38,478 nt of DNA from a virus (lineage: Duplodnaviria > Caudoviricetes): the IMG/VR virus record IMGVR_UViG_3300012038_000025, positions 1-38,478 of that record; one strand, given 5' to 3'. Positions 18,493 to 37,916 of the stretch are shown one piece after another (within the stretch, counting starts at the first letter, position 1; each line of letters starts with the position of its first letter). The notes under the pieces were generated by a model. It did no database searches. It was not told the origin of the DNA and worked only from the letters and a program-made list of their open reading frames with translations. A program made the position numbers and the translations under genes.

Positions 18493-19232
18493 GCGGGCAC
18501 CGCCTCATCTGTGGTCCAGTGCTGACGCACCCACGGACAGTGCATCTGCACGTAGCTATCCCAGGGATCGCGGTGGCCGTGAAAGACGACCACGCGCGCA
18601 TTCGCCGGCAGCCGGTGATTGTCTGGCGCGATGTGGTTCCGGTAGCTGTAGACGCCGTCGGCCTGCGTCCACTTCGCTTCGCCAGGGCCGAGGATCCGGC
18701 TGATGTGGCCCTGGTCGGAGCCGAACGACTTGGCCTTGTAGGACGCTTGCGGCGACGTGAACTGGTCGAACTCCGTCCACACTTGGGGCCGCGAGCCAGC
18801 GCGGATCAACTGCATCGAGCCGTTGTAGTGACTGCCCGGCAATGGGTTCGTGTCGCCCCAGAACACCACGTCCTCGTCCCTGTTCCAGAGCGGATCGAGG
18901 TCGTCCGTAATCACCACGTCCAGATCCAGCGAGACGAACCGTTCGCCAAACCACTGCGCGGCGTCAGGGTGAAACAGCCGCAGCCGGCGGTAACAACTCG
19001 GATTGTTCCGTCCATGCGGCGATGGCACCGCGGCGTAGTCGTTCCAGGCCGGCAGAATCTCGACCGACGAGTCGATCCCGTCCGGCTGGTCGGTGACGCA
19101 CACGAACCGATGCGGGTGGCGGTAGTGCCGGCGCACCATCGCCGCCAGGACGTTCACCGTCTCCGGCCCGAACGTCGAGCGGTAGCCAGGCGCGGGCGCC
19201 CACTTCCAGCAGATCACCGTCTCGGGCCTCAT
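18489..19232 (-). CDS. GT-A fold glycosyltransferase
   Basis: VICWKW...VNVLAAMVRRH...FVCVTD, DxD motif in VSLDLDVVI, SDQG, VVVFHG. Confidence 0.82.
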   Translation of the reverse strand: MRPETVICWKWAPAPGYRSTFGPETVNVLAAMVRRHYRHPHRFVCVTDQPDGIDSSVEILPAWNDYAAVPSPHGRNNPSCYRRLRLFHPDAAQWFGERFVSLDLDVVITDDLDPLWNRDEDVVFWGDTNPLPGSHYNGSMQLIRAGSRPQVWTEFDQFTSPQASYKAKSFGSDQGHISRILGPGEAKWTQADGVYSYRNHIAPDNHRLPANARVVVFHGHRDPWDSYVQMHCPWVRQHWTTDEAVPA

Positions 19233-19963
19233 GGATACACCTGCGACCAGGGAAACGTGAGCCGCTTGGGCTGATAGGACGCGCCGAGATAGAACTTGTG
19301 CGCCTTCCGCAGCGACCGCTCTTCGCGGTCGCTGTCGTCCTTCCGCGTGTAGCGCGTCGTGCTCGCGTCCGCGATCACCTCTGGCGGATACTCGATCACG
19401 ACTTCAGTCAGGATGTGGATCGCCTGCGCCCAGAGGGCCACCCGCCCCGCGAACTCGCCGTCGGTCCCATAGATGCCAGAGAACAACTCGTCGTAGCCGC
19501 CGATCCGGTTGAGGAACATATGGCGCGTCATCGCCCACGTATTGGGGTGAGGGTTCTTTTCCTTGTGGTCAGGCGCGACCACGCGCGAGAAGCGATAGGC
19601 CACGAGCGGATCCAACTTGTCCCGCATGAGCCGGCGCCACGTCGCATACGGCACGACGTGATCGATGTCCGTCATCAACACCCACTCGGTGGTCGCTTTG
19701 TCGACGCCCAGATTCCGGCAGAACAGCCAGTTCCACCGGACGTCCACCTTCGTGCGGAACAGCCGGAACGACGCCAGCGCCGGCGCCGTCTCAGGGTCCA
19801 GTTCGGGCGCGGCCGGATGCTCCGGCGAACAGTCATCGACGACGACGACGTGCAACGCCTGCCGCACGTCCAACTCCAGCGCCCGCCACTGCTTCTGCTG
19901 TTCGCGGAACATCAGCGGGTTGTCGTAGTAGGGAACGATCAACGTGAACGCGCGATAGGTCAT
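19229..19963 (-). CDS. GT2-like glycosyltransferase
   Basis: Start reassigned to ATG 19963; TLIVPYYD, VVVVDDCS, RNLG, MTDIDH, IGGYDE. Confidence 0.85.
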   Translation of the reverse strand: MTYRAFTLIVPYYDNPLMFREQQKQWRALELDVRQALHVVVVDDCSPEHPAAPELDPETAPALASFRLFRTKVDVRWNWLFCRNLGVDKATTEWVLMTDIDHVVPYATWRRLMRDKLDPLVAYRFSRVVAPDHKEKNPHPNTWAMTRHMFLNRIGGYDELFSGIYGTDGEFAGRVALWAQAIHILTEVVIEYPPEVIADASTTRYTRKDDSDREERSLRKAHKFYLGASYQPKRLTFPWSQVYP

Positions 19964-20568
19964 GCGTTCACCCACAGGAAGCTGGGCGTGCGCTCGCCCG
20001 TGGCAAACCACTGGCGGATCCCACGCGCGGCCGTGAACGTCTTCACCGCGTCGATCACGTTGATGAACGGCTTGGCAGGGTTGACGCAGTAGTCGTGGCC
20101 GGCGATCACCCCGTGGACCTTGACCTTTGGCGTCCAGGCGCACAGGTCCGCCAGCACCGCCTCGTAACTGTGATTCGCGTCGATGTAGACGAAGTCGAGC
20201 GACCGATCCGGCACGGTCGCCGCGATCGCCACCGACGCGCCCTTGCGGATCTCGCAGCCCAGCGGCTCGAGCACCCGCCGTGCCGCGGCCTCGGCCTCAA
20301 CCATCTGCGCGGGCGTCTTCAAGGCCACGCGCTGGCCGCTCACGTCGCCGTGGAACGTCTCCCACGCATCCACGCACAGTAGACGCAGGGCCGTATTCGC
20401 GGCCTTGAGCTTCGCCGAGAAGCCGCCGTGCCACACGCCGATCTCGGCGCCGGACGTGTAGCCACGAGCCGCGAAGAGGGCCGGCAGCGCTTTCCGGGTC
20501 ACGCCCGGCAGACGCACTTCGCCCTCGACCTCAGACACGAACAGGGCTTCCAAGGCGGCCACCGTCAT
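19960..20568 (-). CDS. Class I SAM-dependent methyltransferase (Methyltransf_24-like)
   Basis: Start ATG 20568; GAEIGVWHG, LDFVYIDANHSYEAV, GVIAGHDY. Confidence 0.88.
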   Translation of the reverse strand: MTVAALEALFVSEVEGEVRLPGVTRKALPALFAARGYTSGAEIGVWHGGFSAKLKAANTALRLLCVDAWETFHGDVSGQRVALKTPAQMVEAEAAARRVLEPLGCEIRKGASVAIAATVPDRSLDFVYIDANHSYEAVLADLCAWTPKVKVHGVIAGHDYCVNPAKPFINVIDAVKTFTAARGIRQWFATGERTPSFLWVNA

Positions 20569-21251
20569 GCGGCCCACCCGCCCCACTGGGCATCGAACCA
20601 GTCCCACTGCTGCGCGGCGAGATGGTTCTTCGGCTTCTTAACGAGGATCACTTTGGCTTCGGCCGGCCACGGGGGCTGCACCTGGCTGATCCGCGGGAAC
20701 CACGCCAGCGGCAACACGGGCGCGTCGGGATAGCGTTCGCTCATCCAGTCGTCGCACCCGTAGTAGTGATTCGCCAGCGACGGCGACCAGTCGGTGTAGA
20801 GATCCGCCACGGCCCCGGCGTCAAAGACGATCACGCTGCCCTGATGCTTCTGACAGACCACGCGCCCGTCCTTGAAGCCCACGACCGGCGGGCCGTCGCC
20901 GTTCCCGAACAGGTCCGCCGCACAGATGAACGGATCGCCAGTGTCCACCAGTGGATCCAGCGGCGCCACGATCAGCGTGTCCAAGTCGAGATAGAGCACC
21001 CGCCCATACAGCGGCATCGTCGGATCGAACAGAAACACCTTGTGCCAGAACGCCTGCGTGAGCCGAAGATTCGGGATCGCGATGGCCTCGATGTTGGCCG
21101 CAGACACCGCCTCTGGCTGATCCGTCAGACAGACGAAGCGAAACGGCCGCGACAGATAGCGCCGCGCCATGCGCTCGAGCCGCACGACGTAGTCGAGCGA
21201 GTACGCATAATTCCCGCGCACGAAGACGCAGGCCACAGTCAGCGGCGTCAT
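20565..21251 (-). CDS. GT-A fold glycosyltransferase, paralog-like to 18489-19232
   Basis: YVVRLERMARR...FVCLTD, FWHKVFLF, DxD motif in VLYLDLDTLI. Confidence 0.82.
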   Translation of the reverse strand: MTPLTVACVFVRGNYAYSLDYVVRLERMARRYLSRPFRFVCLTDQPEAVSAANIEAIAIPNLRLTQAFWHKVFLFDPTMPLYGRVLYLDLDTLIVAPLDPLVDTGDPFICAADLFGNGDGPPVVGFKDGRVVCQKHQGSVIVFDAGAVADLYTDWSPSLANHYYGCDDWMSERYPDAPVLPLAWFPRISQVQPPWPAEAKVILVKKPKNHLAAQQWDWFDAQWGGWAA

Positions 21252-22048
21252 GCCAGCACCGCCGTGCTCGCGTGGTGGGCATAGACGAAGTCCCGGCGCG
21301 CAATCGCCACCCCTGATCCGTAGCCGAACGACTCGAACGTCAGACCAGCCGCCTGCGCGGCGCTCAGCAAGGCGTCAAAGTGCGCTTGCAGGTCCGCGTT
21401 CGGATGTTGGAACACCGGCCCGCTATACCAGTGCGTCCGGCCCTGCGACGCCAGCCGCGCCATCGCGTGCTTCAAATGGACCTGGTGTTCGATGCGGCTG
21501 TAATGCGTGGCCTTGATCCGCCTGTCCGCCAGATCGAACCCGTCGATCGCATTCCAGTCGCCGGACGCGAAGTGGCTCACCAGGTCCGGCCGTTCCTTGA
21601 AGTAGGTCGTGTAATACCCCTGTGGATTGGGCATCCGTCGCAAGCCGTCGAGATCCGCGATGTGCCCTTTCGCCTTCGCGCAGTCGAACAGCGTGCAGCA
21701 GGTCTTCACTTTGCCGGCGAGTGTTGGACGCTTTGTCACGATCACGCCGGGAACGTCCTCGCGCCAGAGGTCCGCGAGGTCGCCGTGGAAGACGAAGTCC
21801 ACGTCGGCATAGATCGCCCGACCCTCGAAGTCGCACATGGCCGGAGGCGACCATCGGAAGCCCGAGAACGGCGTACGCCCGGAGGCGAGCTGCCAGCCCG
21901 CATACGGCCCAGACGGCGCCGCGCGCATCCAGGTGATGTCAATCGGCAGCGACGAGCACTGGCGCGCGGAGTACTCCAGCACCGCCTCGGCTTCGTAGTC
22001 CTCGCCGTTCGGTGACGTCCCGATGAACAGGCGGATGACGTCGCTCAC
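21248..22048 (-). CDS. GT-A fold (GT8-like) glycosyltransferase
   Basis: Start GTG 22048; IRLFIG, TPFSGFRW, GRAIYADVDF, DLADLW, WNAID. Confidence 0.8.
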   Translation of the reverse strand: MSDVIRLFIGTSPNGEDYEAEAVLEYSARQCSSLPIDITWMRAAPSGPYAGWQLASGRTPFSGFRWSPPAMCDFEGRAIYADVDFVFHGDLADLWREDVPGVIVTKRPTLAGKVKTCCTLFDCAKAKGHIADLDGLRRMPNPQGYYTTYFKERPDLVSHFASGDWNAIDGFDLADRRIKATHYSRIEHQVHLKHAMARLASQGRTHWYSGPVFQHPNADLQAHFDALLSAAQAAGLTFESFGYGSGVAIARRDFVYAHHASTAVLA

Positions 22049-22683
22049 AGGAACGCCTCCAGCGGCTTCCGCTCGAAGCACGTCACGCGCGACACGGGCG
22101 AGCAGTTGACGACGCGCAGCCCCTTCCGCAGACAGTCCTCGGCCAACTTGGGCAAGGGCGCCATGTGGCCCACGAAGTGCGACTCGGGGATCTGCGGCAT
22201 CGGGTGCGGATGCTCACCCGTGAACCACCGCCCGCCGGTCATGTCGTAGCCGATCAGGATCACTTCCGAAACGCCGAAGTGGTACGCGAGGTTGATCGCG
22301 CTCGTGCCGGAGTCGTAACCCGTCACATGCGTCTGCCGATCGGAGAGTGTCGTGTGATCCTTCCACCGGCCCACGCGCAAGACGGACGCCGGCAGACGCC
22401 GGCAGGACTTGCCGCGCACGGCGGCGTAGGTGCCACGAAAGACCGGCAGGAGCGGCAGTGCGAGTTCATTCATCGACTCGCCGCCAATCCACAACACGTC
22501 GGCGTCGGGTCGCAGATACACCGCCTGCTTGACCGCGATCACCCGCCCTTTCAGGCGAGGAATCAGCGCCCGTTGCGCCCGCACACTCGCGCCGCCGCAG
22601 ATGATGAAGCACCGTTCGCCCACCCACTCGCGTGGCACGGACCAGTGCGGCGCCGACACAGGAGCCGTGAGGACCGCCGTCAT
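22045..22683 (-). CDS. DUF115/MAF/MptE-like nucleotide-binding transferase
   Basis: Start ATG 22683; CFIICGGAS, SGTSAINLAYHFGVSEVILIGYDM, VVNCS. Confidence 0.7.
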   Translation of the reverse strand: MTAVLTAPVSAPHWSVPREWVGERCFIICGGASVRAQRALIPRLKGRVIAVKQAVYLRPDADVLWIGGESMNELALPLLPVFRGTYAAVRGKSCRRLPASVLRVGRWKDHTTLSDRQTHVTGYDSGTSAINLAYHFGVSEVILIGYDMTGGRWFTGEHPHPMPQIPESHFVGHMAPLPKLAEDCLRKGLRVVNCSPVSRVTCFERKPLEAFL

Positions 22684-23366
22684 GCGACCGCCTTGTCGTC
22701 CGGCGTCACCCACATGGGCAACCCGCGGAGGCGCTTCTTCCAGAACATCCCCAAATGGCCGAGATCCACCGCATGCACGCCCTTCGCGCACAGGTCGACG
22801 GCCAGCACGGTCGCGGTCGGCCCCAGGCAGAGCAGCGCCGTTTCCGGCGTGCCGATCTCGGCCAGAATCTCGGCATAGTTCGCCCACGCATCGCGAACGG
22901 GCGCGAGTATTTCTCGGACCTCCGACGCGCCCGCCTCCAGCAGCACGTCGGCCGTGAACGACTTCTGCTGTCCACGGACCAGCGTCACGGACTTGTTCAG
23001 CCAGAGCGACTGGACGAGCGTCCAGTAGGCGTCATCGTTGATCCACGGCGCGGAGTCGGGACGGGTCACGAACGCACTGCCGTACGGCCGATCCGCCAGC
23101 AGTTTTGACGCCCACTGATACGTGTTCCAGTGAACGGCCTTCGGCCCAGGATCGTGGATGTTTGGGATCCCCACGAGGCAGGCGCCGGAGTCGAGCAGGA
23201 TCGCGCGCAGGCGAGCCGTCAACGCCGCGTCCGCCACTTGCGGCTTGATGTTGCACACCCGGTCGGCTTGGCGGAGTTCCCCGTCACCGTAGCGGGACAG
23301 GCTGCGCCCGCCCACGACGGCGCGCATTGTGTCGAACTCGGACAGCACGCGCGGGTACGGCTTCAC
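22680..23366 (-). CDS. GT-D fold glycosyltransferase (DUF1792-like)
   Basis: Start GTG 23366; SLSRYGDGE, AFVTRP, LGPTATVLAVDL...AVDLGHL. Confidence 0.85.
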   Translation of the reverse strand: MKPYPRVLSEFDTMRAVVGGRSLSRYGDGELRQADRVCNIKPQVADAALTARLRAILLDSGACLVGIPNIHDPGPKAVHWNTYQWASKLLADRPYGSAFVTRPDSAPWINDDAYWTLVQSLWLNKSVTLVRGQQKSFTADVLLEAGASEVREILAPVRDAWANYAEILAEIGTPETALLCLGPTATVLAVDLCAKGVHAVDLGHLGMFWKKRLRGLPMWVTPDDKAVA

Positions 23367-24043
23367 GCGGCCCTCCACCGAGGCACGCACCGGCTGATCC
23401 AGTTCTGACGTCCGCCTTCAGGCCCACCCAGGTGGAACAGGTAGAGGTCGTCGCGCATTTCGAGCCGCGGGAACTTGGCGAAGACGTGAATGTCGTACTT
23501 GGCCGCCGATCCGTAGGAGCCGAACCGAAAGCCCGTGAAGTAGCGGAACAGTTGCGCGTAGCCCACCGGACGGCCGCCGGAGTTCTTCATGCGCTTGAAC
23601 TTGTGCAGACCCTTCCGTCCGTTGCAGTGCTGATCGAGGTCCGTCGGTGTCGGGCATTCATACCGCCACCAGCCCGCCATCGTGCCAGTCGGGATCGCGT
23701 CTTCCTTCGGCACGTTGCCAAACGGATAGACGTCGGCGTTAAGGCTCAGGCAGAGCTCGCCATCGGCGGGCTCATCGCGGATACCCGGCCGGAAGCCGAA
23801 CGCCTCATCGAGCCCCAGCGGCATGTTGAATGTCGGCGGGATCGCGCCGATATGGCCCTCGGCGATCCGTGACCAGCCGTCCGTCACCCACGCCTTGACG
23901 TCATGCTTCGCACAGACGGCCTGTGTTTCGGTGTCCTCTGGCGACGTCGCCACACCGAGCTGATCACCGAGCAGACGCTTCCACGCCGGCAGCGTATCGG
24001 CCAGGAAGTCGCCGCATCGGACACTCGTGATGAGGGCTCTCAT
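23363..24043 (-). CDS. Putative GT-A/GT2-like glycosyltransferase
   Basis: Start ATG 24043; LSLNADV (degenerate DxD), GYAQLF, YGSAAKYDIHV, FHLG; cluster context. Confidence 0.55.
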   Translation of the reverse strand: MRALITSVRCGDFLADTLPAWKRLLGDQLGVATSPEDTETQAVCAKHDVKAWVTDGWSRIAEGHIGAIPPTFNMPLGLDEAFGFRPGIRDEPADGELCLSLNADVYPFGNVPKEDAIPTGTMAGWWRYECPTPTDLDQHCNGRKGLHKFKRMKNSGGRPVGYAQLFRYFTGFRFGSYGSAAKYDIHVFAKFPRLEMRDDLYLFHLGGPEGGRQNWISRCVPRWRAA

Positions 24044-24753
24044 GCCGTCACCAACTGTCCCGCGCGCCACGGCCACGCGCCGAGGGCGTCAGGGATGATC
24101 CGGCGCGCACAGGCGTCGCGCTGTTGATACCAGTCGGCCTGATGGCAGTAGCCGACGCCTTGGCTCGACAACTTGCGGAACTGCGCCGACTCGGGCATCG
24201 GCGGCAACAGCAGATCGATGCCCTGCAACCGGGCGGACGCGCTGAACCACAGGTCGTCCATCTCGACGGTCGCCGGCCAGTGATAGCGCGAGAGAATGGT
24301 CCGCAGGATGGACGCCGGAACGAGATCGCAGCGGCCGAGCGCCACGTCCAGGCGAGTCGGCGACCCACCGGACGTCGCTTTCAGCGATCGCCACGCCTCA
24401 TACCCACCGTCGGTCGCGACCCTGCCGTGCATCGCCCAGACGGCCTTCGGATCCTGATAGTGCCAGTCCACAAGATCGTCGAGCGTGTCTCTCCCGACCA
24501 GTAAATCGTCGTGCGTGAACAGCACGATGTCGGACTTCGCCATCAGCGCCGCGTAGAACCGCCCCTGACAGCCGACGTTCCGATGCGACTGCACCACGGA
24601 CACGCCGTCGATCGGGTCGATCGGCTCGCCGTTGTTCCACACGATGATCTCGTCTGGCACGCGTGAGCCAGCGCGCAACGCCTCCACCACGATCGGCAAG
24701 TTCTGCCGACGTTCGGGATAGAACACGGGGATCACCGCCGTGACCGTGCTCAT
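24040..24753 (-). CDS. GT2/GT64-like glycosyltransferase
   Basis: Start ATG 24753; TAVIPV, EIIVWNN, LFTHDDLLV, MDDLWFS. Confidence 0.75.
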   Translation of the reverse strand: MSTVTAVIPVFYPERRQNLPIVVEALRAGSRVPDEIIVWNNGEPIDPIDGVSVVQSHRNVGCQGRFYAALMAKSDIVLFTHDDLLVGRDTLDDLVDWHYQDPKAVWAMHGRVATDGGYEAWRSLKATSGGSPTRLDVALGRCDLVPASILRTILSRYHWPATVEMDDLWFSASARLQGIDLLLPPMPESAQFRKLSSQGVGYCHQADWYQQRDACARRIIPDALGAWPWRAGQLVTA

Positions 24754-27044
24754 ACGAACGCCTCGTGTTGACGCTTCTCGAAAACCGGCGCGAGCTGTCG
24801 GTTCACCAGGTGCAACCTGCACATCGCTCGGCAACCGCTGAAGTCCGTCCACTGCCCCGGATGCCGCGCCCACAGATCCGCGAAGGTGTCGCGCGTCAGG
24901 TCGCCGAGTTCAGACCCAGCCAGGCCGCGGCGGTTCGGACAGACCCACACGCGCCCATCTGGCGTAACTTGCGTCACGAGCCGGATGCCGTGGCAGGTCT
25001 GATAATCGCGGCCGGTCCAGTCGCGGTACTCCTCGAAGCGATCGGGATCGACTTCGACGTCGGCCTCAGCGTGCAATTCCCAGAGCGTCGGCAATGCGGC
25101 CGTGACCCACGAGCGGTCGCCCGTGATCACCGACAGGTCGGCATGGTCCGTTTCGATCGTCGGACGGAAGGTGGCGTACGTGGCGCCGAGTGAGCGCGCG
25201 AGCGCCAGCATCTCGGCTGTGCGCGTCCAGTTGCCCGCGTGGAGCAGGAACGACACGCCCACCGTCGCGGCCCCTCCCGCCAATCGCCGTATACCGGCGC
25301 ACGCATCGGCGAACCGCGACGGTGGGACGCCCTTTTCCCTGGCGTACGTCTCCGCGTCCGGACAATCCAGCGAGACGACGGCCCAGGTGAAGTGTTGTTT
25401 GACGAACGCCGCGCGAGCCTCGGTGAGATGGCCGCCGAGCGTATACATGCCCTGCTGTAGCCCGCAGCGGTGCGCCCACTGGACGAACAGATCGAACTCA
25501 GGATGCAGGGTGGGCTCGCCCCCGCCGGACCAGACGATCGCCTGCACCCCGGCCGCGTGCATGTCCGCCACGGCGGGAATAAGCCAGCCCTGCTCGGCGA
25601 AGCGGCCGGTGTCGCCGTAGTCCTTCGGCTTCTCGGCCTTGCGTGCCCACGGCCCGGCGACGTGCGTATGCGCGAAATGGCAGTTGTGAACGACCATCCC
25701 ATCGGCCGCATACGTGCCGTGAGAGGTTTCGAGGTTGTAGACGGTCGCTACGCGGGTATCGCGGTCGATCCGATCGATCGAGGCCAGAACCAGATTTGGC
25801 TCCAGCCGGTCGCCAGAAACAGATCCACGGAGCGCTTGAGATCCGCCCGCATCGCCGCCGTTCGATGGCGCATGTGCGGCGGCAGCATCACCACGAGACA
25901 AGAGAACCCGTGCCCCTCGTAGTGCTGAATCGTTGGAATCGCGTAGCCGTCCAGCGTCCGTCCGCCCGGCGTTCTGTTGTAGCCGTCCGTAACTTCGATG
26001 ATCAGTTTCCGGCCGTGGACCTTGAAGTCTGGATTGCGCGCCTTCACCCAAAACTGTCCCGTGCCCGTATACCAGACCGGAACCGTGTGCAGCGCGCAGA
26101 ACCGGCCGAACCACTGCTCCAACTTCGACGCACTCAGGTGCAACCGCGTCTTGCTCAGGCTGCGTTCCTTGGTATCGTTGTCGAACATCGGATTGCGCGT
26201 CTTCATCCGCTGCACAACGGCTGCCCTGAACTCCGGGTGTGTGGCCCAGAACTGGCGTGACGCCTCTCCTCGTCGTTCGTATGCGCCACTGGCCAGAGAG
26301 GTAGCGTTCACCTTCGCTGCCACCTCCGGTCGTCTCATGGGATTGTCGCGCTTCATCCGCTCTGACGCTCTCAGGCGCCACTCCGCGCTCATCACTGGCG
26401 GCGTCAAGCGTCCGTCTGCGTACGCTTGCCGGCGCCACGCCGACACATCCGGACGACGCTTGCCTTTGTTCGCCTCGGCTACCTTTGCCGCAATCTCCGG
26501 GCGCTTCATGGGATTGTTCGCCCGCTTGGCCGCAGAGATTCTGGCGCGTGTCTCTGGAAGGTGATGGCCTCGACGAGTCATCGAGCCGGCCGTCAACACT
26601 CTCAGGCCGCAACCGCAAGCGCAAAGTTTCCGAGAGTCCAACGAGCCGATCTCCGACCGTGAGATTTGACGCGGCAACCCATCCTCGCTCGGTAAGGAAC
26701 GGGTGTTCGCCGGTCGCTTCGATCGCTGTCTGTCCGACATGGATGGTGTAAATGGTGCCAGCGAACGGCCGCTCCGATACGGCCAGCGTGGCCACCCATG
26801 CCGCGCGCCGAGTCGCCTCGTCGTAGCCGAGGACGATCTCCCCAGGCACGACATCGGCAATCGAGACGCGACCGCGCGCCATTGTCTCAACTTTCGCCTT
26901 CTGGGTAAAGCACGACTGGCACCCCAGCGAGCAGACGTTCGTCAGGTCGATCTCGACCGTCACCGGGGCCGGCGTCCCGCCGCGCTGCCACTCGGCCAGC
27001 CGATCGAGATGCGCGAACACCTTCTGCGCCCCGATGTGCTTCAC
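24750..27044 (-). CDS. Radical SAM protein with SPASM/twitch-like C-terminus, interrupted by an intein (764 aa precursor, about 354 aa spliced)
   Basis: EIDLTNVCSLGCQS|...|CHF reconstitutes CxxxCxxC; WSGGGEPTLHP; C-terminal C...DGRVWVC...LGDL...CxxxC. Confidence 0.92.
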   Translation of the reverse strand: MKHIGAQKVFAHLDRLAEWQRGGTPAPVTVEIDLTNVCSLGCQSCFTQKAKVETMARGRVSIADVVPGEIVLGYDEATRRAAWVATLAVSERPFAGTIYTIHVGQTAIEATGEHPFLTERGWVAASNLTVGDRLVGLSETLRLRLRPESVDGRLDDSSRPSPSRDTRQNLCGQAGEQSHEAPGDCGKGSRGEQRQASSGCVGVAPASVRRRTLDAASDERGVAPESVRADEARQSHETTGGGSEGERYLSGQWRIRTTRRGVTPVLGHTPGVQGSRCAADEDAQSDVRQRYQGTQPEQDAVAPECVEVGAVVRPVLRAAHGSGLVYGHGTVLGEGAQSRLQGPRPETDHRSYGRLQQNAGRTDAGRLRDSNDSALRGARVLLSRGDAAAAHAPSNGGDAGGSQALRGSVSGDRLEPNLVLASIDRIDRDTRVATVYNLETSHGTYAADGMVVHNCHFAHTHVAGPWARKAEKPKDYGDTGRFAEQGWLIPAVADMHAAGVQAIVWSGGGEPTLHPEFDLFVQWAHRCGLQQGMYTLGGHLTEARAAFVKQHFTWAVVSLDCPDAETYAREKGVPPSRFADACAGIRRLAGGAATVGVSFLLHAGNWTRTAEMLALARSLGATYATFRPTIETDHADLSVITGDRSWVTAALPTLWELHAEADVEVDPDRFEEYRDWTGRDYQTCHGIRLVTQVTPDGRVWVCPNRRGLAGSELGDLTRDTFADLWARHPGQWTDFSGCRAMCRLHLVNRQLAPVFEKRQHEAFV
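25683..26912 (-). mobile_element. Intein (410 aa) in the radical SAM gene
   Basis: Block A CFTQKAKVET, block B IEATGEHPF, block F VYNLET, block G MVVHN followed by Cys+1. Confidence 0.93.
25748..26641 (-). CDS. Putative homing endonuclease overprinted inside the intein (NUMOD3-like repeats plus PD-(D/E)xK / Vsr-DUF559-like domain)
   Basis: Separate frame with CACGCG, HLPETRARISAAK, three NPM(K/R/F) repeats, SKLEQWF, NPDFKV, IIEVTDGY; candidate TTG start at 26641 with GGAG 9 nt upstream. The longest ORF extends to 26890. Confidence 0.8.
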   Translation of the reverse strand: MDSRKLCACGCGLRVLTAGSMTRRGHHLPETRARISAAKRANNPMKRPEIAAKVAEANKGKRRPDVSAWRRQAYADGRLTPPVMSAEWRLRASERMKRDNPMRRPEVAAKVNATSLASGAYERRGEASRQFWATHPEFRAAVVQRMKTRNPMFDNDTKERSLSKTRLHLSASKLEQWFGRFCALHTVPVWYTGTGQFWVKARNPDFKVHGRKLIIEVTDGYNRTPGGRTLDGYAIPTIQHYEGHGFSCLVVMLPPHMRHRTAAMRADLKRSVDLFLATGWSQIWFWPRSIGSTAIPA

Positions 27045-27802
27045 GCGCCCACCCCGCGGTACGTGATGTCACAGGGAATCGTCAGCACAGCCGGCGGCAG
27101 TTTCTTCGACTGTTTGTCGGCGAGCACCTGTTGCACGAAGCCGTTGCGTCGGAAGGCGTCCCGGTTCGTCCGCGTGCTCGCGTCTGGAATCACTTCGCGC
27201 GGGAACCGCACGATCGGAATGTCGGGCCAATGCACGAGCGTGACATGGTCGATCAGCTTCCGGCGGTAGTAGCCGTCGGTCCCGTAGATGCCGAGCACGT
27301 CTTCGTCGTAGCCACCGACGGCCCAATATGTCCGCTTCGACATGGCGTAGGTGTTCGGATGCGGGTGCAGACGCCCTTGCTTGTCCACCTTCGGCGTCAG
27401 GTTCGGCGCGTCGAGTCGGTGGAACGAGTAGACGGGATCGCGGCCAGTCGGCTGCCAGATGCGATCGAGCAACGCGCGCAGACTGTCCGCCGGGAGGACG
27501 TGATCCATGTCGGACAGAAACAGCCAGTCGCCGGTCGCGTGGTGCGCCGCCCAGTTGCGGGCCGCGTCCTGGCGCCACGGGGGCGTCTCTGGCGTGGCGG
27601 TGGGCGGGAACTCGGCGAGCGTGAGGGCCGGGAGCCCATCGGGTTTCGCGACGTCCCTGGCGGGCTCTGGCGAGCCGTCGTCCACGATCAGCACTTCGAT
27701 CCGCGCCTTCAGATCAGCTGGATAGTCCGCCCACACGCGGTACTGGTGGGCCAACATCCCAGGGTTGCGCCAGTAGGCGAGGCAGATCGACAACGTCGTC
27801 AC
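27041..27802 (-). CDS. GT2-like glycosyltransferase, paralog of 19229-19963
   Basis: LIVDDGS, ARNWA, LSDMDH, HPHPNTYAM, VGGYDED...YGTDG. Confidence 0.85.
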   Translation of the reverse strand: MTTLSICLAYWRNPGMLAHQYRVWADYPADLKARIEVLIVDDGSPEPARDVAKPDGLPALTLAEFPPTATPETPPWRQDAARNWAAHHATGDWLFLSDMDHVLPADSLRALLDRIWQPTGRDPVYSFHRLDAPNLTPKVDKQGRLHPHPNTYAMSKRTYWAVGGYDEDVLGIYGTDGYYRRKLIDHVTLVHWPDIPIVRFPREVIPDASTRTNRDAFRRNGFVQQVLADKQSKKLPPAVLTIPCDITYRGVGA

Positions 27803-28506
27803 GCCGCCACCTCGGTTTCGAGGACGGCGCGCAGATCCGCCTTCGGAAAGCAGTCAAGCTTCGTGGTGCGTGTGCAGTTGACGACTTCGACGCCGAGCGC
27901 CTTCAGCGGCTCCACCATCTGGTGGAACATCGGCAGGAACGTCTCTTTCGCCGGCCCTTGATTCAAGCGGCCGGGATGATCCCCGAAGAAGTGCGAGGGT
28001 TGGCCTTTGCCGCGCCCCATGTCATACCCGAGCAGGACGATGCGCGCGGCGCCTAGATGCACGGCGAGATTGATGGCCGAGGCGCCGGAGTTCTTCCCGG
28101 TCCGCAACCCTGACGGGTGGGCTTCTATCCCCGTGTCACCCGTGTTCCGCAACACCATCACGTTCCACTCCGTCGGAGGATCAAGGGGGCGGATACCAAA
28201 CTTCCGCCCGGAGAACTCAGGGACGCCCTTGTAGTACGTCCACCAGTGCTGGTCGCTGCTGTAAAGCCCGTCAGCCCACGGCGCGAGCCGGTGGGCATCG
28301 TTCACGACGATCACGCGCCGCCCGCGGCAGACCTCGACGTCGTCAGCCGTCAGGCTGGGACCGGACGCGATACAAACGACCGTCGCCCCCGGCCACGCCC
28401 TTTGAACGGTCGGGAATGCGCTACAGTCGCCGTCTGGCCCAAAGGGTCCAAGGCCGCGACCTCCAGCGCGTCGTCCACGACGACGATCACCCCGTCCGCC
28501 AGCCAC
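27799..28506 (-). CDS. DUF115/MAF/MptE-like transferase, paralog of 22045-22683 (start uncertain)
   Basis: VVCIASGPSL, NSGASAINLAVHLGAARIVLLGYDM, VVNCT; protein-like sequence begins only near 28420. Confidence 0.7.
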   Translation of the reverse strand: MAGGRGDRRRGRRAGGRGLGPFGPDGDCSAFPTVQRAWPGATVVCIASGPSLTADDVEVCRGRRVIVVNDAHRLAPWADGLYSSDQHWWTYYKGVPEFSGRKFGIRPLDPPTEWNVMVLRNTGDTGIEAHPSGLRTGKNSGASAINLAVHLGAARIVLLGYDMGRGKGQPSHFFGDHPGRLNQGPAKETFLPMFHQMVEPLKALGVEVVNCTRTTKLDCFPKADLRAVLETEVAA

Positions 28507-30302: not shown

Positions 30303-31079
30303 ATGGCTGCAAAGAAGTCTACGTCACAACCCGAAGTCTCCGAGATCCTGAAGGTCGAAACCGCCTCAGTGACGTGCTACGTGCTCGGCACGAGCCCGAT
30401 CATCCTCAACCGGATGAGCGAGAAGGCGAAGCATGAACTGCTGATGCCAAAGGGCCGCAAGTCGGCCGTCGAAAAGGCGACGACGCTCAAGCACAAGCCG
30501 ATCGAGGAATACCGTGCGTCGGCCTACACGCTGAAGGACAAGGCGCAGCCGACGCTGCTGGCGATGCTGGCCACGTCGTTCAAGGGGGCCATTCGATCGG
30601 CGGCGCTCGACATGCCTGGTGCGAAGAAGGCGCAGATCGGCCGGCTCACCTACATCGCTGGTGAGTTCGTCGGGATCTACGGCGTGCCCAAGTTGTTCAT
30701 GTCCACGGTGCGCTCGGCCGACATGAACAGGACGCCGGACATCCGCACGCGCGCGATCGTGCCGGAGTGGGCGTGCAAGTTGTCGATCACCTACGTGCAG
30801 CCACTCATTCGTCAACAGGCCGTCTTGAATCTGCTGGCTGCGGCTGGTATCACGATCGGCGTGGGCGATTGGCGACCGGAGAAGGGCGCCGGCAACTACG
30901 GCCAGTTCAAGATCGTCGCGCCGAACGATCCCGAGTTCGCCGCAATCGTGAAGGCGGGAGGGCGCAAGGCGCAGATCGAAGGGCTGGAGAATCCGGTCTG
31001 CTACGACGACGAAACGACAGAACTGCTGTCGTGGTTCGATGAGGAACTGACGCATCGGACGCTGAAGGGAGCGGCGTGA
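30303..31079 (+). CDS. Stand-alone RAMP/Cas7-like RNA-binding protein (Vipr-like)
   Basis: Beta-1 VTCYVLGTSPIILN; LATSFKGAIRSAA resembles the RAMP PgSslKGalRs helix; thumb-like TPDIRTRAIVPEW; terminal Gly-rich loop AGITIGVGDWRPEKGAGNYGQF; GGAGG RBS. Confidence 0.8.
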   Translation: MAAKKSTSQPEVSEILKVETASVTCYVLGTSPIILNRMSEKAKHELLMPKGRKSAVEKATTLKHKPIEEYRASAYTLKDKAQPTLLAMLATSFKGAIRSAALDMPGAKKAQIGRLTYIAGEFVGIYGVPKLFMSTVRSADMNRTPDIRTRAIVPEWACKLSITYVQPLIRQQAVLNLLAAAGITIGVGDWRPEKGAGNYGQFKIVAPNDPEFAAIVKAGGRKAQIEGLENPVCYDDETTELLSWFDEELTHRTLKGAA

Positions 31080-31558
31080 TGAAACTCACGAAAGCGCAAC
31101 TCGACTGCCTCAAAGGGCTCGAGGACAAGCAGGGGCGCATCAGTGCCTCTCGCGTGGTGGCGCATGCGCGGAAGCCGTCGAGTCCGCTGCATCCGTTGTT
31201 CCCGTGGAATCTGAAAAAGGCAGCAATGCTGCACTGGATTCAACGGGCGCGAGAGATCATCGGCCACGTCACGGTGCTCGTGCAGCACGAGACGCACGAG
31301 ATCAAGGTGCCGGTGTATGTGCGTGACCGTTCAGTGGGCGGTGCGCAGGGCTATCGCAGCGTGATTGCCTTGCGTGCCGATCCGGCGGCGGCGCGTGAAT
31401 CGCTTGTCTACACGCTGGAGGTGGCCGCGGGCCACGTCCGGCGCGGTCTTGATCTCGCGGGGCCGTTGGGACTGACGCGGGAGATCGATCGGCTGCTCGC
31501 GGAGATCGTCGGGGTGCAACGGATCGCCAAGGGCGTCAAGAGCAAGAAGGCGGCGTAG
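31076..31558 (+). CDS. Phage protein of unknown function, partner of the RAMP gene
   Basis: 160 aa; start overlaps the RAMP stop; GRISASRVVAHARKPSSPLHPLFPW motif; ends 5 nt before the array. Confidence 0.8.
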   Translation: MMKLTKAQLDCLKGLEDKQGRISASRVVAHARKPSSPLHPLFPWNLKKAAMLHWIQRAREIIGHVTVLVQHETHEIKVPVYVRDRSVGGAQGYRSVIALRADPAAARESLVYTLEVAAGHVRRGLDLAGPLGLTREIDRLLAEIVGVQRIAKGVKSKKAA

Positions 31559-31563
31559 AACAC

Positions 31564-32201
31564 GGCTGGACAGGCGCGTCCTGACACGGCTGGGCGGGGC
31601 AAGCCTCGACTAGTCGCGACGAGACATGACGTGGCAGGCTGGGCGCGGCCAGTGGTGGACTGGCAACGCGGTTGATGGCTCGGACAGGCGTGGCGAGGCA
31701 GGCGACGCACGGTAGTTCAAGGCGGGGTCCGTCATGGCGCGGTCTGGCGAGGCAGGCGCGGCGCGGTCTAGTGAGGCGCGGTATGGCGCAATCGGGCGAG
31801 GTATGGCTGGGCGGGGCTGGTTCTAGGTAGGCAAGGCGTGGATGAACACGGCAGGCCAGGACCTTGGTCCGGACTGACAAGGACTGGCTAGGCCGGGCGT
31901 GACACGGCAGGCGAGGCGCGGCGAGACACGGCGCGGCGGGATCCGGTCGCGGCGAGTTCTGGCAGGCTATGACAGGCACGGCCCGATGGGGCCTGACGCG
32001 GCGGATCGACCCTTGGCCACGCAGGCGAGGTGTGGATCGGCGGGGCATCACTCTACTTGGCGCGGATTGGCGAGAGCGGCAGGCGTGGAGCGGCAAGGCG
32101 TGACGGGGGGGGATAGACACGGCTAGGCGTGGTTGGCCGAGGCAGGCGAGGTATGGACGGGCTAGGTTTGGCTGGGCGGCGTCAGTCGAGTCCCGGCAGG
32201 C
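31564..32201 (+). ncRNA. Pentamer-periodic GG(C/T)NN array of ten units delimited by GGCA-GGC; putative guide RNA array
   Basis: GGCAGGC at 31633, 31697, 31751, 31850, 31906, 31961, 32078, 32141, 32195 (variants at 31569, 32020); spacings 64, 64, 54, 99, 56, 55, 59, 58, 63, 54, mostly 5n+4. The repeat is seen directly; RNA function is inferred. Confidence 0.75.
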
Positions 32202-32203
32202 AA

Positions 32204-32395
32204 TCAGCGGTCGCGCGACTGAATCACCAGTCGCGTGACCGCTTCTCTTACTAACTCGTGAACGGGATGCCCGGATCGATTCGACAGATCCATCAACCGA
32301 TTGTGAATCTGGGCAGGCAGCCGCGTGCCTACCTGTAACATTGGCTGGCCTGGATACAGCGCCGGCCGGCCGCGGCGATTCCGTTCTCGGCTCAT
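32204..32395 (-). CDS. Ribbon-helix-helix (CopG/Arc-like) DNA-binding protein
   Basis: RGRP hook, then QVGTRLPAQIHNRLMDLSNRSGHPVHELVREAV; 63 aa; ATGA-coupled to the protease. Confidence 0.7.
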   Translation of the reverse strand: MSRERNRRGRPALYPGQPMLQVGTRLPAQIHNRLMDLSNRSGHPVHELVREAVTRLVIQSRDR

Positions 32396-33132: not shown

Positions 33133-33392
33133 GTCGCGCCTCCAGTTGTGGCGCCGTCGCCATCGAGGCTTGTGTCTCGAAACACGTCCTGACCGCTCGA
33201 TGATTTGCCGACCAGCACGAGGCTTGGATACAGCTCCAGCATCTTTCGGCCATCCATGTCGAGTACAACCGGGAATGGATACATGACGCCACGAGAGGAC
33301 TTCACGAGCACGGTTCCGAAAAACACGTCTTCCTGAAGATCAATTAGTGCGCCCGAGTTTTCTGGCGTGCTTGGAGCAAGTGGATCAGACAT
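33129..33392 (-). CDS. Hypothetical protein
   Basis: 87 aa; AGGAG RBS; overlaps both neighbours. Confidence 0.6.
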   Translation of the reverse strand: MSDPLAPSTPENSGALIDLQEDVFFGTVLVKSSRGVMYPFPVVLDMDGRKMLELYPSLVLVGKSSSGQDVFRDTSLDGDGATTGGAT

Positions 33393-36108: not shown

Positions 36109-37916
36109 TACACCCACTCCGCGAAGACTTCGGGTCTCGTATCCGGCACGCTCGCCAGCATCTTCAGCCCCATGAGACTTGCCACGACGCCGTCAATGTG
36201 TTTGCTCGCCTGTTTCGGTTTCACGGGTCGGATCCGCTTCGCGTCGTCGGACTTGATCGCGACGTTGCCGACGTGGTTTCTCAGCACGCGGTTCGCGCCG
36301 TGGACGATGCGGCCGGACTTCGCCAGCCCTTCAAACACGTAGCAGGGCTCGGACAAGTGCGTGTAGTTCTGGAGGACTTCCAGGCACCATTCGTCGCGGC
36401 TCGCCCACTTGCGGAGCTGCGTGGCGAGGTCCGTCGCAAACGCCGGGTCATAGCCGATTACGCTCTCGCGCAGTCGGGGAAACCGCGGGGCGATCTTCGT
36501 CGTGATGTCGTCCAGAATCCGCGTGTAGTCGATCACCATGCCGGGCGTCGGCGTCACGAGGCCTTGACGCACCCAGTCCGAGTAGGGCACGCCATCGCGC
36601 GCCTCGTGCTCCCGCATGCGCTCTTCTGGAATCCAGAAGAACGGGACGGTGATCAGCCGGTAGTTCAGATTGAGCGCCTTCGGTTGTTCTTGCCCGTCCA
36701 CGGCCTCGACCTGCACGGCCGAGGCGAGCCGCTGGCGAAACGTCACCGAGAAGCACGCGAGGTCGATCTTCGCGGCCATATCCAAGCCCGCCGCACACGG
36801 CAGCGTCCGGAGCACGTCATCCGGCGGGATCGGCTCGTCTTTCGTCTGGTCCCACCAGTCGATCGGCAGCCACGACACCGCCTGATTGACCCAGCGGTTC
36901 AGGTGCCACATCAGAAAGTCGTTCAACTTCCGCGGGTCCGACTTGGCCTCGGCCGCCAGCGCCACGATTCCGTCATGCTGCACCGTCACGCCGTGGCCTG
37001 GGTTCACCCGGCGCCAGGTCTCTTCGGCGAACGGGTCATCGTCGGGCTGGCCCTCGAAGATCACCGGCAGCTCGGAGGCGTCCGTCACCGCCCCTGCGAG
37101 CACGCGCTTGGCGTAGTCGTATTCCTCGAAACAGATCCCTTCGTCGTCGTGGCCGGCGTGCGTCAGGATCAACATGACCGGCTCGAGCCGCTTGATCATC
37201 GACCGCCACAGGACTTCGTACAGATCCCGATTCTTCTGGGCGTGCATCTCGTCCATGACCACGGCGAACGGACGATACCCGTGCTTGCTGGAGGCGTCGG
37301 CGGACAGGACGATGTATTTCGAGTGAGTGTCGGTGCGCTCGATTTCGTCGCGCTTGACGAGCAGCAGTTCGCCGAGTTCCGGATCGAGCACCTTGATCCG
37401 CTCGGCCATGACGCGGGCGTTGTCGTGGACGACGCGCGCCTGTTTCATCTCCGACGCCACCGCGTAGACTTCCGCGCCTGGCTCGCCACAGCAGAAGGCC
37501 AGATAGAAGCCCAGCCCAGCGCCGAGCGGCGACTTTCCCGCACCTTTGGGCAGGAACCCGAACAGCTTGCGGAATCGCCGGAGCCCCGTTGCTGAGGACT
37601 TCCACCCGAACAGCGGACGCGCGATCAGCCATTCCTGATAGGGCATCAGCGTGAACGGCTGGCCGTCAAAGTGCCCGATGTAATGCCGAAGGTAGGCCGG
37701 GAAGAACTCGACGACGCGATCCGCCGCGGCCTGGTCGTAGTAGAACCGCCCGTCCGGTGACTCCCACCGCTTGCGGGCGCCCACCCAGACGGCCTCGAGC
37801 TCCACCGTGACACCAGGCCAGCGCTCTGTCGGCGACGACCCATTGCCCCACCAGCCCCGCGTCGGTGGCTTGCCTGACCGCTTCGCGGCCGGCCGCTCGA
37901 GGACGGCATCAGCCAC
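36108..37916 (-). CDS. terL: Terminase large subunit
   Basis: Walker A PKGAGKS, Walker B VVMDEMH, nuclease motifs GLDMA, GYDPAFA, HIDGVVA. Confidence 0.96.
   Translation of the reverse strand: MADAVLERPAAKRSGKPPTRGWWGNGSSPTERWPGVTVELEAVWVGARKRWESPDGRFYYDQAAADRVVEFFPAYLRHYIGHFDGQPFTLMPYQEWLIARPLFGWKSSATGLRRFRKLFGFLPKGAGKSPLGAGLGFYLAFCCGEPGAEVYAVASEMKQARVVHDNARVMAERIKVLDPELGELLLVKRDEIERTDTHSKYIVLSADASSKHGYRPFAVVMDEMHAQKNRDLYEVLWRSMIKRLEPVMLILTHAGHDDEGICFEEYDYAKRVLAGAVTDASELPVIFEGQPDDDPFAEETWRRVNPGHGVTVQHDGIVALAAEAKSDPRKLNDFLMWHLNRWVNQAVSWLPIDWWDQTKDEPIPPDDVLRTLPCAAGLDMAAKIDLACFSVTFRQRLASAVQVEAVDGQEQPKALNLNYRLITVPFFWIPEERMREHEARDGVPYSDWVRQGLVTPTPGMVIDYTRILDDITTKIAPRFPRLRESVIGYDPAFATDLATQLRKWASRDEWCLEVLQNYTHLSEPCYVFEGLAKSGRIVHGANRVLRNHVGNVAIKSDDAKRIRPVKPKQASKHIDGVVASLMGLKMLASVPDTRPEVFAEWV

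What the first reader, a model, noticed from the sequence alone, without database searches (positions are those of the whole stretch)
25683..26912. Intein whose homing endonuclease is overprinted in a different reading frame
The intein frame stays open for 410 aa, but its central ~290 aa are Arg/Gly/Ala-rich with no domain motifs. The +1 frame on the same strand (25748-26641) encodes a coherent protein: CxCGCG, NUMOD3-like repeats and a PD-(D/E)xK/Vsr-like nuclease. It has a candidate GGAG RBS and TTG just after the N-terminal splicing blocks and stops within the C-terminal region. Established: intein endonucleases are normally in frame and mostly LAGLIDADG or HNH. Inference: about 900 nt are dual-coding, with the nuclease translated independently of the splicing precursor.
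Basis: partly seen in the sequence, partly recalled or inferred. Interest (0 to 1): 0.8.

Follow-up and report, generated by a model that had tools for sequence, protein, structure and literature searches.

The report
Intein with out-of-frame Vsr-like nuclease
A phage iron-sulfur enzyme gene carries a self-splicing protein insert (intein) whose middle, read one base over, encodes a separate protein predicted to be the DNA-cutting enzyme that spreads the insert; the double coding is real and shared by distant relatives, but this general layout has been reported before.

Summary
Confirmed and not an artefact. A phage radical SAM/SPASM gene (27044-24750, minus strand) has a 410-aa intein (26912-25683) inserted just before the third cysteine of its CxxxCxxC motif. 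The intein's middle is predicted disordered in the host frame; the +1 frame (TTG 26641 to TAG 25748, 297 aa) is a conserved protein with a Vsr-like nuclease fold. Contigs from several runs show no indel. Stop-creating codons are avoided (0 of 54 risky sites against 36 of 187). Four of five homologous precursors (37-47% identical) carry the same +1 nuclease, and empty alleles occur in related phages and in three runs. Close relatives of the nuclease also stand free beside an empty copy of the same gene; distant ones sit in frame in radical SAM inteins. Most likely it is a homing intein whose nuclease is translated from its own start; expression, cleavage and splicing are untested. Out-of-frame intein nucleases are in print (Gosselin 2025; Phillips 2026), and this scan found the same layout before in at least eight other genomes. 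New here: host gene, nuclease subfamily (EDxHD His/Asp absent), and the free-standing link. New variant of a known kind.

The parts
26913..27044 (-). N-extein of radical SAM/SPASM protein, 44 aa, ends ...C-S-L-G-C-Q-S (first two Cys of CxxxCxxC)
   Evidence: aligns with uninterrupted homologues L008-L014
26642..26912 (-). Intein N-terminal splicing region (Cys1, block B T-G-E-H-P-F), host frame
   Evidence: Pfam PT-HINT E 2.4e-7, Intein_splicing E 1.7e-8; beta-strand Hint fold with pLDDT 70-90
26651..26654 (-). GGAG, candidate Shine-Dalgarno 9 nt before the TTG; in the host frame it uses GGA, the rarest Gly codon (41 of 740)
   Evidence: such a tetramer precedes 112 of 1529 ATG/GTG/TTG on this strand, so it is suggestive only
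25748..26641 (-). +1-frame ORF, 297 aa: CxCGCG module, three NPM helical repeats, C-terminal Vsr-like PD-(D/E)xK-type nuclease domain; predicted homing endonuclease
25985..26119 (-). Predicted active-site region: Glu (26119), Asp of NPDF (26029), Glu (25996) and Asp (25987) of IEVTDGY, invariant in 16 of 16 aligned sequences
   Evidence: role as catalytic residues inferred from fold
25800..26641 (-). Host-frame reading of the same DNA: about 280-aa stop-free linker, predicted disordered
   Evidence: pLDDT under 50 for precursor residues 140-414, no secondary structure; codon adaptation 0.39 against 0.63-0.67 in the flanks
25683..25799 (-). Intein C-terminal splicing region (block F V-Y-N-L-E-T, block G H-N); its first codons overlap the nuclease tail
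24750..25682 (-). C-extein, 310 aa; its first residue is the third Cys of CxxxCxxC and the +1 nucleophile of splicing; radical SAM core and SPASM domain
   Evidence: Pfam Radical_SAM E 5.9e-5, SPASM E 0.0026; 58-69% identical to 7 uninterrupted phage homologues

Best explanation
This is an intein in a phage radical SAM gene whose central DNA is coded in two frames: the host frame gives a stop-free linker predicted to be disordered, and the +1 frame gives a separate protein predicted to be a Vsr-like homing endonuclease, likely translated from its own TTG start and likely cutting intein-free copies of the gene so that the whole intein is copied in. Steps: (1) shown: both frames are open and both are under selection; (2) inferred from intein motifs: the 764-aa precursor splices at Cys45 and Asn454/Cys455, discarding the linker and rejoining CxxxCxxC, without which the enzyme cannot bind its iron-sulfur cluster; (3) inferred: ribosomes also start at GGAG-9 nt-TTG on the same mRNA and make the 297-aa nuclease as a free protein; (4) inferred from fold and allele pattern: the nuclease cuts the empty allele near the insertion site in co-infecting phages and repair copies the 1230 nt in; (5) inferred, weaker: the layout arose when a free-standing nuclease gene that already lived beside this radical SAM gene moved into an intein at the same gene, out of frame, and purged host-frame stops.
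For: No indel: contigs spanning the whole intein in runs X1 (depth 19, may be the source) and X2 (depth 7) have 0 gaps; short contigs of X4 (another habitat and year) cover both frame junctions with 0 differences. Nuclease frame is the protein-constrained one: GC3 and codon adaptation switch frames over the insert (0.56 in +1 against 0.39 in host frame); against relative L006, substitutions peak at host position 1 (= nuclease wobble) in the nuclease core (0.52/0.24/0.25) but at position 3 in the splicing regions (0.27/0.24/0.53; 0.14/0.10/0.38). Host frame is kept open: T at the wobble position occurs at 0 of 54 sites where it would make a host-frame stop against 36 of 187 other sites, Fisher p 6e-5; free-standing homologues L004 and L005 have 17 stops each in that frame. 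Four of five homologous precursors (P0033, P0034, P0035, P0037) are open in the host frame and can carry CxCGCG, NPD(F/Y), IExTDG(Y/W) and PTxxHY in +1 at the same spacing, against 0 of 300 shuffles each with two or more core motifs; P0034 and the separately called nuclease P0043 fit as two frames of nearly one sequence (127 of 130). Fold: Vsr 1CW0 Z 9.3, rmsd 4.0 over 120; I-Bth0305I 3R3P Z 8.1 and top Foldseek row; profile match 99% to DUF559-annotated P0030. Start: 8 of 15 homologues begin with the first Cys at residue 6-8, here 7; L006 has GAGG-6 nt-GTG with a +1-frame stop two codons upstream. Empty alleles: 7 of 7 phage loci found with the C-extein, a contig skipping exactly 1230 nt in X3, empty-site junctions in X6 and X7 with 1 difference in 191 nt of flank. 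Free-standing close relatives lie convergent to, 12 nt from, an empty homologue of the host gene in L004 and L005 and share a 99-support clade with this nuclease.
Against: Nothing here shows expression, cleavage or splicing. The His and last Asp of the EDxHD motif are not conserved, so activity is inferred from four invariant acidic residues. Foldseek gave no match at E 0.001 or better (best 0.089) and Z 8-9 is middling. The +1 frame is open 100 codons upstream of the TTG, which leaves room for a frameshift product; TTG is a weak start and the predicted mRNA fold leaves the site partly paired. P0038, the fifth precursor, shows only 1 of 7 motifs and background score. L006 has about 60 alignment gaps, probably sequencing errors. 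L004 and L005 come from one sample set and are sister sequences, so they count as one case; no mini-intein at this site turned up; the tree is a quick one, midpoint-rooted, and does not give the order of events.
Confidence: 0.75

Rival explanations
1. Same dual coding, but the nuclease is made by a +1 ribosomal frameshift in the N-terminal splicing region, as an N-extein/N-intein/nuclease fusion, not from its own start.
For: The +1 frame is open from 26941, across the whole N-terminal splicing region (about 0.05 by the window's +1 stop rate of 0.031 per codon). Several distant relatives were called with N-terminal extensions that read like block B in the shifted frame (14 of 100 against 6% in shuffles). 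TTG is a weak start.
Against: In L006 the +1 frame has two stops between block B and the nuclease start while the host frame runs on. Homologue N-termini and the GGAG fit the TTG. Codon adaptation of the +1 frame upstream of the TTG is only 0.43.
Confidence: 0.1
2. The nuclease frame is a conserved but now silent or catalytically dead passenger; the intein is inherited vertically or spreads by ordinary recombination.
For: EDxHD His and Asp are replaced; no expression data; empty alleles can also arise by precise loss.
Against: The ORF is intact, four acidic residues are invariant in 16 of 16 sequences, substitutions follow the nuclease frame, and filled and empty alleles with nearly identical flanks occur in related samples.
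Confidence: 0.09
3. Origin differs: an ordinary in-frame intein nuclease was shifted out of frame by two compensating indels in an ancestor, then fixed.
For: 40 of 64 scanned relatives carry the nuclease in frame with Hint domains, at least 27 of them in radical SAM proteins; L007 is in frame with a C-terminal splicing region.
Against: The 20-member clade that holds this nuclease has 0 of the 17 in-frame rows and both free-standing rows. A one-step shift would need a 290-codon alternative frame to be stop-free at once, whereas unconstrained homologues have 17 stops there; this difficulty applies to the insertion model too.
Confidence: 0.25
4. Assembly artefact: two sequencing indels hide an in-frame nuclease.
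For: In-frame relatives are common; only contigs, no raw reads, were available.
Against: 0 gaps in two spanning contigs and in junction pieces from another study; an error would not leave the wrong frame stop-free with 0 of 54 risky codons; four divergent precursors share the phase.
Confidence: 0.01
5. The host frame is not read through; the insert is removed at the RNA level or the two intein halves are made separately and splice in trans.
For: Fractured genes with split inteins around a related nuclease exist (L001, L002).
Against: The host frame has no stop here or in four homologues and stop codons are selected against; no Rfam family, introns included, reaches its threshold in the window.
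Confidence: 0.04

Closest known systems
Non-canonical actinobacteriophage inteins (Gosselin et al., bioRxiv 10.1101/2025.01.02.630785; passages and one discussion section read)
   Same: Contiguous intein with a structureless in-frame middle and a homing endonuclease in another frame; includes Vsr-like enzymes with a long helical N-terminal part and a same-strand out-of-frame type; proposes invasion of an intein by a free-standing nuclease gene.
   Different: There the Vsr-like nucleases are antisense and the same-strand one is endonuclease VII-like in frame 3; hosts are DNA polymerase, minor capsid, terminase, thymidylate synthase ('radical SAM' occurs 0 times in the main text). Here: Vsr-like, same strand, +1, radical SAM host.
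Cyanobacterial DnaX intein with out-of-frame endonuclease (Phillips, DeSimone, Gogarten, bioRxiv 10.64898/2026.09.14.751524; whole main text read)
   Same: Overlapping ORF with putative Shine-Dalgarno, disordered host-frame linker, purifying selection in the nuclease frame, filled and empty alleles in one population.
   Different: LAGLIDADG nuclease, bacterial chromosome, mini-intein alleles known, donor nuclease not found; here a Vsr-like nuclease with free-standing close relatives beside the empty gene.
EDxHD homing endonucleases, I-Bth0305I (PMC3239194; passages read) and the fractured split-intein genes it cites
   Same: N-terminal repeated DNA-binding modules, C-terminal Vsr-fold nuclease; found with inteins, introns and free-standing.
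   Different: His and final Asp of the motif are not conserved here; no sequence match to 3R3P at E 10; CxCGCG modules; intein is contiguous, not split.
ShiLan insertion with hidden HNH endonuclease (PMC11855218; abstract and discussion read)
   Same: Stop-free insertion in a phage gene whose nuclease is in another frame.
   Different: No splicing domain, HNH nuclease, no detectable ribosome-binding site.

Membership tests
Class 1 intein | N-terminal Cys/Ser, block B TxxH, C-terminal His-Asn, Cys/Ser/Thr at +1 | tested here: met
   Cys1, T-G-E-H, H-N then Cys
Class 1 intein | Hint fold formed by the two splicing regions | tested here: met
   Pfam PT-HINT above cut-off, Intein_splicing 34.8 bits against cut-off 35.8; strand-rich confident model for both regions
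Class 1 intein | Precise insertion; empty alleles lack exactly the element | tested here: met
   X3 contig skips 1230 nt; 7 of 7 phage homologues uninterrupted
Class 1 intein | Protein splicing activity | not testable with these tools
   needs expression
Intein with out-of-frame homing endonuclease (Gosselin 2025; Phillips 2026) | Contiguous host frame through an unstructured middle | tested here: met
Intein with out-of-frame homing endonuclease (Gosselin 2025; Phillips 2026) | Nuclease ORF in another frame, under selection in that frame | tested here: met
Intein with out-of-frame homing endonuclease (Gosselin 2025; Phillips 2026) | Signs of mobility (patchy distribution, filled and empty alleles) | tested here: met
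   consistent with homing, does not exclude loss
Vsr-like / DUF559 nuclease superfamily | Vsr-type alpha/beta nuclease fold | tested here: met
   best two of 48,161 chains are Vsr (Z 9.3) and I-Bth0305I (Z 8.1); Foldseek same top hit but E 0.089; 99% profile match to DUF559-annotated P0030
Vsr-like / DUF559 nuclease superfamily | Direct Pfam match to Vsr or DUF559 | tested here: not met
   0 families at E 0.05
EDxHD homing endonuclease family | Glu and Asp at the first two motif positions | tested here: met
   invariant Glu (SKLE) and Asp (NPDF), aligned to the same residues of P0030
EDxHD homing endonuclease family | His general base and following Asp | tested here: not met
   P0030 'EYWH...QERD' aligns with 'GYNR...GGRT'; correspondence taken through P0030, not through 3R3P itself
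EDxHD homing endonuclease family | N-terminal NUMOD-type DNA-binding repeats | tested here: inconclusive
   three NPM helical repeats without a Pfam hit; NUMOD3 hits only in distant relatives and in look-alike clusters
Homing endonuclease (function) | Cleaves the intein-free allele near the insertion site | not testable with these tools
   needs an in vitro or two-plasmid assay
Radical SAM/SPASM enzyme | CxxxCxxC motif, GGE motif, SPASM cysteines | tested here: met
   motif complete after splicing and in homologues; Pfam and NCBIfam hits all below family cut-offs, so no specific family

The most novel reading that the evidence does not exclude
One nuclease clade catches an intein acquiring its homing endonuclease in the act: the gene stands free next to an empty copy of its target radical SAM gene in some genomes, lies nested in +1 inside an intein at that same gene in others, and stays in +1 across precursors only 37-47% identical, so the overprinted state is a stable, selected design (nuclease dosage and timing uncoupled from the splicing precursor) and not a passing stage towards in-frame fusion; the nuclease would also be a Vsr-fold enzyme that cuts without the EDxHD histidine.
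Probability: 0.3. Interest if true: 0.62.

Novelty: new variant of a known kind. Interest (0 to 1): 0.38.

Why it matters
Gene callers report only one of the two frames (the database holds the nuclease of this locus from an internal Met, and the host-frame precursor of others), so such inteins are filed as degenerate and their nucleases as orphans. The published model says free-standing nuclease genes invade inteins, but the DnaX study could not find the donor; this family offers donor-like genes beside the empty target gene, the nested +1 form and in-frame cousins, which makes the model testable with one target site. It also offers a Vsr-fold nuclease subfamily without a Pfam model. The layout itself is no longer a surprise.

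Tried and rejected
Pfam, NCBIfam and PHROG scans of the +1 protein: 0 families. Sequence search of solved structures with the 16-sequence profile: three weak unrelated rows, none a nuclease. Nuclease profile in viral contigs and in GTDB genomes, and tblastn in 50,697 annotated phages: no relative. Profile against the DUF559-like domain of L001: probability 0.3%, so L001 shares the repeats, not the close nuclease family. Search for mini-intein or in-frame precursors at this site among proteins of 420-1337 aa: none among 8 and 2 hits; word-index searches, so absence is not shown. No RNA holder listed. No raw reads were offered, only contigs. Sigma-70 promoter and terminator scan 25500-27300: 0 sites, as in shuffles. 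Rfam: 0 matches. Block B shadow test in nuclease-only proteins was weak (14 of 100 against 6% null; other frame 12 of 100 against 16.5%) and is not relied on; the block F test was clearer (25 of 100 against 8%; other frame 4 of 100 against 4%) but cannot tell whether the host frame is open in those loci. P0038 was not counted as a +1 case. The careful tree did not finish; the quick tree was used. Paper searches that found nothing: intein + endonuclease + 'different reading frame' + phage; intein + radical SAM + Vsr + endonuclease; intein + overlapping + DUF559.
Full report
Setting. The window is a 38,478-base virus record, 74% complete by the record's estimate, with terminase, portal, protease, capsid, tape-measure and tail genes. 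Between capsid and tail genes lies a run of glycosyltransferase-like genes; the radical SAM/SPASM gene 27044-24750 (minus strand, 764 aa) is one of them. The same module surrounds the homologous gene in other phage contigs. What the enzyme does is not determined: all NCBIfam hits are far below cut-off; a role in making or modifying a virion glycan is an inference from the neighbours (search listing only).

The observation. The intein runs 26912-25683, 410 codons, Cys1 to His-Asn, and splits CxxxCxxC just before its third Cys, which is also the +1 nucleophile. By established radical SAM chemistry the enzyme cannot bind its cluster unless the intein splices. The +1 frame holds a 297-aa ORF from TTG 26641 to TAG 25748; the third frame has 18 stops over the same stretch. 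The +1 frame is open from 26941, so nine ATG/GTG/TTG candidates were listed; two have an upstream GGAG/GAGG/AGGA (26677, 26641).

The +1 frame is a real gene. It has 32 hits among 1613 candidates, 15 of them 37-67% identical over 81-99% of the query, and a profile of these finds 324 proteins at E 1e-10 or better among 1.84 billion. AlphaFold2 gives mean pLDDT 77.5, pTM 0.43: an N-terminal CxCGCG module, a chain of helices with NPM repeats and an alpha/beta domain. The best of 48,161 solved chains are Vsr (Z 9.3, rmsd 4.0, 120 aligned) and I-Bth0305I (Z 8.1, rmsd 3.7, 95 aligned); Foldseek also ranks I-Bth0305I first but only at E 0.089. The profile matches DUF559-annotated P0030 at 99% and the nearest language-model clusters are DUF559/NUMOD3 phage proteins (0.93, family shares 24-57% in the top rows). 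Glu, Asp, Glu, Asp are invariant in 16 of 16, but the His and last Asp that define EDxHD (PMC3239194, passages) align with Arg and Thr. So it works like a Vsr-fold homing endonuclease but is not filed as an EDxHD member.

The host frame over the same DNA is a tolerated linker kept open by selection. In a model of the precursor, residues 140-414 have pLDDT under 50 and no secondary structure, while both splicing regions and the radical SAM core are confident (12-sequence alignment, of which 6 have the insert). Codon adaptation drops from 0.63 to 0.39 in the host frame over the insert and is 0.56 in the +1 frame. A T at the nuclease wobble position makes a host-frame stop when the next codon starts AA, AG or GA: it occurs at 0 of 54 such sites and 36 of 187 others (p 6e-5); resampling gives P(open) of 0.0019 or 0.000035; the free-standing homologues have 17 stops in 376 codons (their GC3 is lower, 0.5).

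Not an artefact. Spanning contigs in X1 (possibly the source) and X2 have 0 gaps; X1 and X2 are of like size, year and habitat and may be one campaign. Two short contigs from X4 (mine drainage, other year) cover 26604-26801 and 25665-25815 with 0 differences, and X5 and X7 add internal pieces with 0 differences. Independent of this DNA, a search with the precursor returned 8 proteins of 7993 scored, five with an intein at the same site. Four (P0033, P0034, P0035, P0037; 37-47% identical) are open in the host frame and can carry CxCGCG, NPD(F/Y), IExTDG(Y/W) and PTxxHY in +1 with the same 13- and 21-residue spacing; two or more core motifs appeared in 0 of 300 shuffles of each. P0034 and nuclease P0043 fit at 127 of 130, i.e. 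both frames of nearly one element were called as genes. P0038 failed the test. L006 is the same intein at the same site, with the host frame continuous from block B into the +1 shadow of CxCGCG; despite about 60 gaps, substitutions against the window peak at the nuclease wobble in the nuclease core and at the host wobble in the splicing regions.

Mobility. All 7 phage loci found with the C-extein are empty (several are near-duplicates). X3 has a contig that skips exactly 1230 nt. X6 and X7 have contigs that run from the N-extein into C-extein sequence with 1 difference in 191 nt of flank, and X7 also holds an intein-internal piece. Filled and empty alleles on almost the same background fit recent homing; precise loss is not excluded.

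The wider family. L004 and L005 carry the nuclease (41-43% identical) as a free-standing gene on the opposite strand, ending 12 nt from an empty homologue of the host gene. L001 and L002 are fractured genes with split inteins around more distant nucleases, and L007 is in frame. Of 64 relatives scanned (chosen mostly for length from the best 150), 40 have Hint domains in frame, at least 27 in radical SAM proteins such as QueE. Of 100 nuclease-only proteins, 25 have a tail compatible with intein block F in the host-equivalent frame (8% in shuffles; 4 of 100 in the other frame), which suggests many more +1 cases. In a quick tree of 82 nuclease cores (148 columns) this protein lies in a 20-row clade (SH-aLRT 99) with both free-standing rows and none of the 17 in-frame rows. 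That favours capture of a free-standing gene over a shift from an in-frame ancestor, but the tree is unrooted in effect and no mini-intein was found.

Mechanism. Shown: two open frames, both selected, same phase in relatives, empty alleles. Inferred: cis-splicing of a 764-aa precursor; internal initiation at GGAG-TTG (homologue N-termini put the first Cys at residue 6-8 in 8 of 15, here 7; these are gene-caller starts; L006 has GAGG-GTG behind a +1 stop); cleavage of the empty allele and copying by repair (general homing mechanism, PMC3943268, passages). Confidence in the whole 0.75; the main alternatives are a frameshift fusion (0.1) and a silent nuclease (0.09).

Comparison with what is known. 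Gosselin et al. (bioRxiv 10.1101/2025.01.02.630785; passages and section 15 read) report antisense LAGLIDADG and Vsr-like and same-strand frame-3 endonuclease VII-like nucleases in contiguous phage inteins and propose invasion by free-standing genes. Phillips et al. (bioRxiv 10.64898/2026.09.14.751524; whole main text) show an overlapping LAGLIDADG ORF in the DnaX intein with frame-specific selection, credit Gorbalenya 1998 (not read) and could not find the donor. Arsenault et al. (PMC11855218; abstract, discussion) describe a hidden HNH without splicing domains. I found no paper on a same-strand Vsr-like nuclease in a radical SAM intein (open-access library only; preprint supplements not readable). 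Earlier notes of this scan list the same +1 Vsr-like layout in helicase, terminase and DnaX inteins of eight other genomes (unchecked notes).

Verdict. Real, well supported, a new variant of a known kind. Interest 0.38; the free-standing link and the altered active site are what a specialist would take up.

Noticed in passing
window 30303-32210 (+): A cassette inserted against the direction of the head genes, between capsid and prohead protease: a 258-aa gene with a Gly-rich C-terminal loop as in RAMP proteins (recalled motif; PHROG 4652, unknown function), a 160-aa gene (PHROG 15946) and a 650-nt array of GGY-NN pentamer repeats (28 GGY pairs at 5-nt spacing in 600 nt against a window median of 2). 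This matches the layout of VIPR RNA-guided systems (bioRxiv 10.64898/2026.04.26.720920, passages read). RAMP fold, type and targets were not tested; look-alike clusters are unnamed phage proteins.
   Followed up: partly
window 19229-28506 (-); L008-L013: Run of about ten glycosyltransferase-like genes (GT2, GT-D, sialyltransferase/MptE-like) with the radical SAM gene, directly after the capsid gene and conserved in related phage contigs; possibly a virion glycosylation module.
   Followed up: partly
L004:148-2451; L005:1733-4150: Free-standing copy of the nuclease, convergent with and 12 nt from an intein-free homologue of the host radical SAM gene.
   Followed up: yes
L001:2392-4876; L002:2298-5092: Fractured radical SAM genes with split inteins: in L001 the nuclease is fused to the N-half and the C-half starts in another frame; in L002 N-half, nuclease and C-half are in three frames.
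   Followed up: partly
proteins P0017-P0025, P0047, P0048, P0052, P0058, P0061, P0065, P0071: A second nuclease clade whose called ends read like intein blocks B and F in the shifted frame, so probably another group of +1 inteins; host genes unknown.
   Followed up: partly
window 25677 region; runs X6, X7: Empty alleles differ from the filled allele by one silent base 6 nt into the C-extein (His codon), a possible co-conversion or target-site marker.
   Followed up: no
window 33385-36117 (-): Portal gene is 910 aa, with the portal domain only in residues 62-392; the C-terminal 500 aa have no Pfam hit.
   Followed up: no
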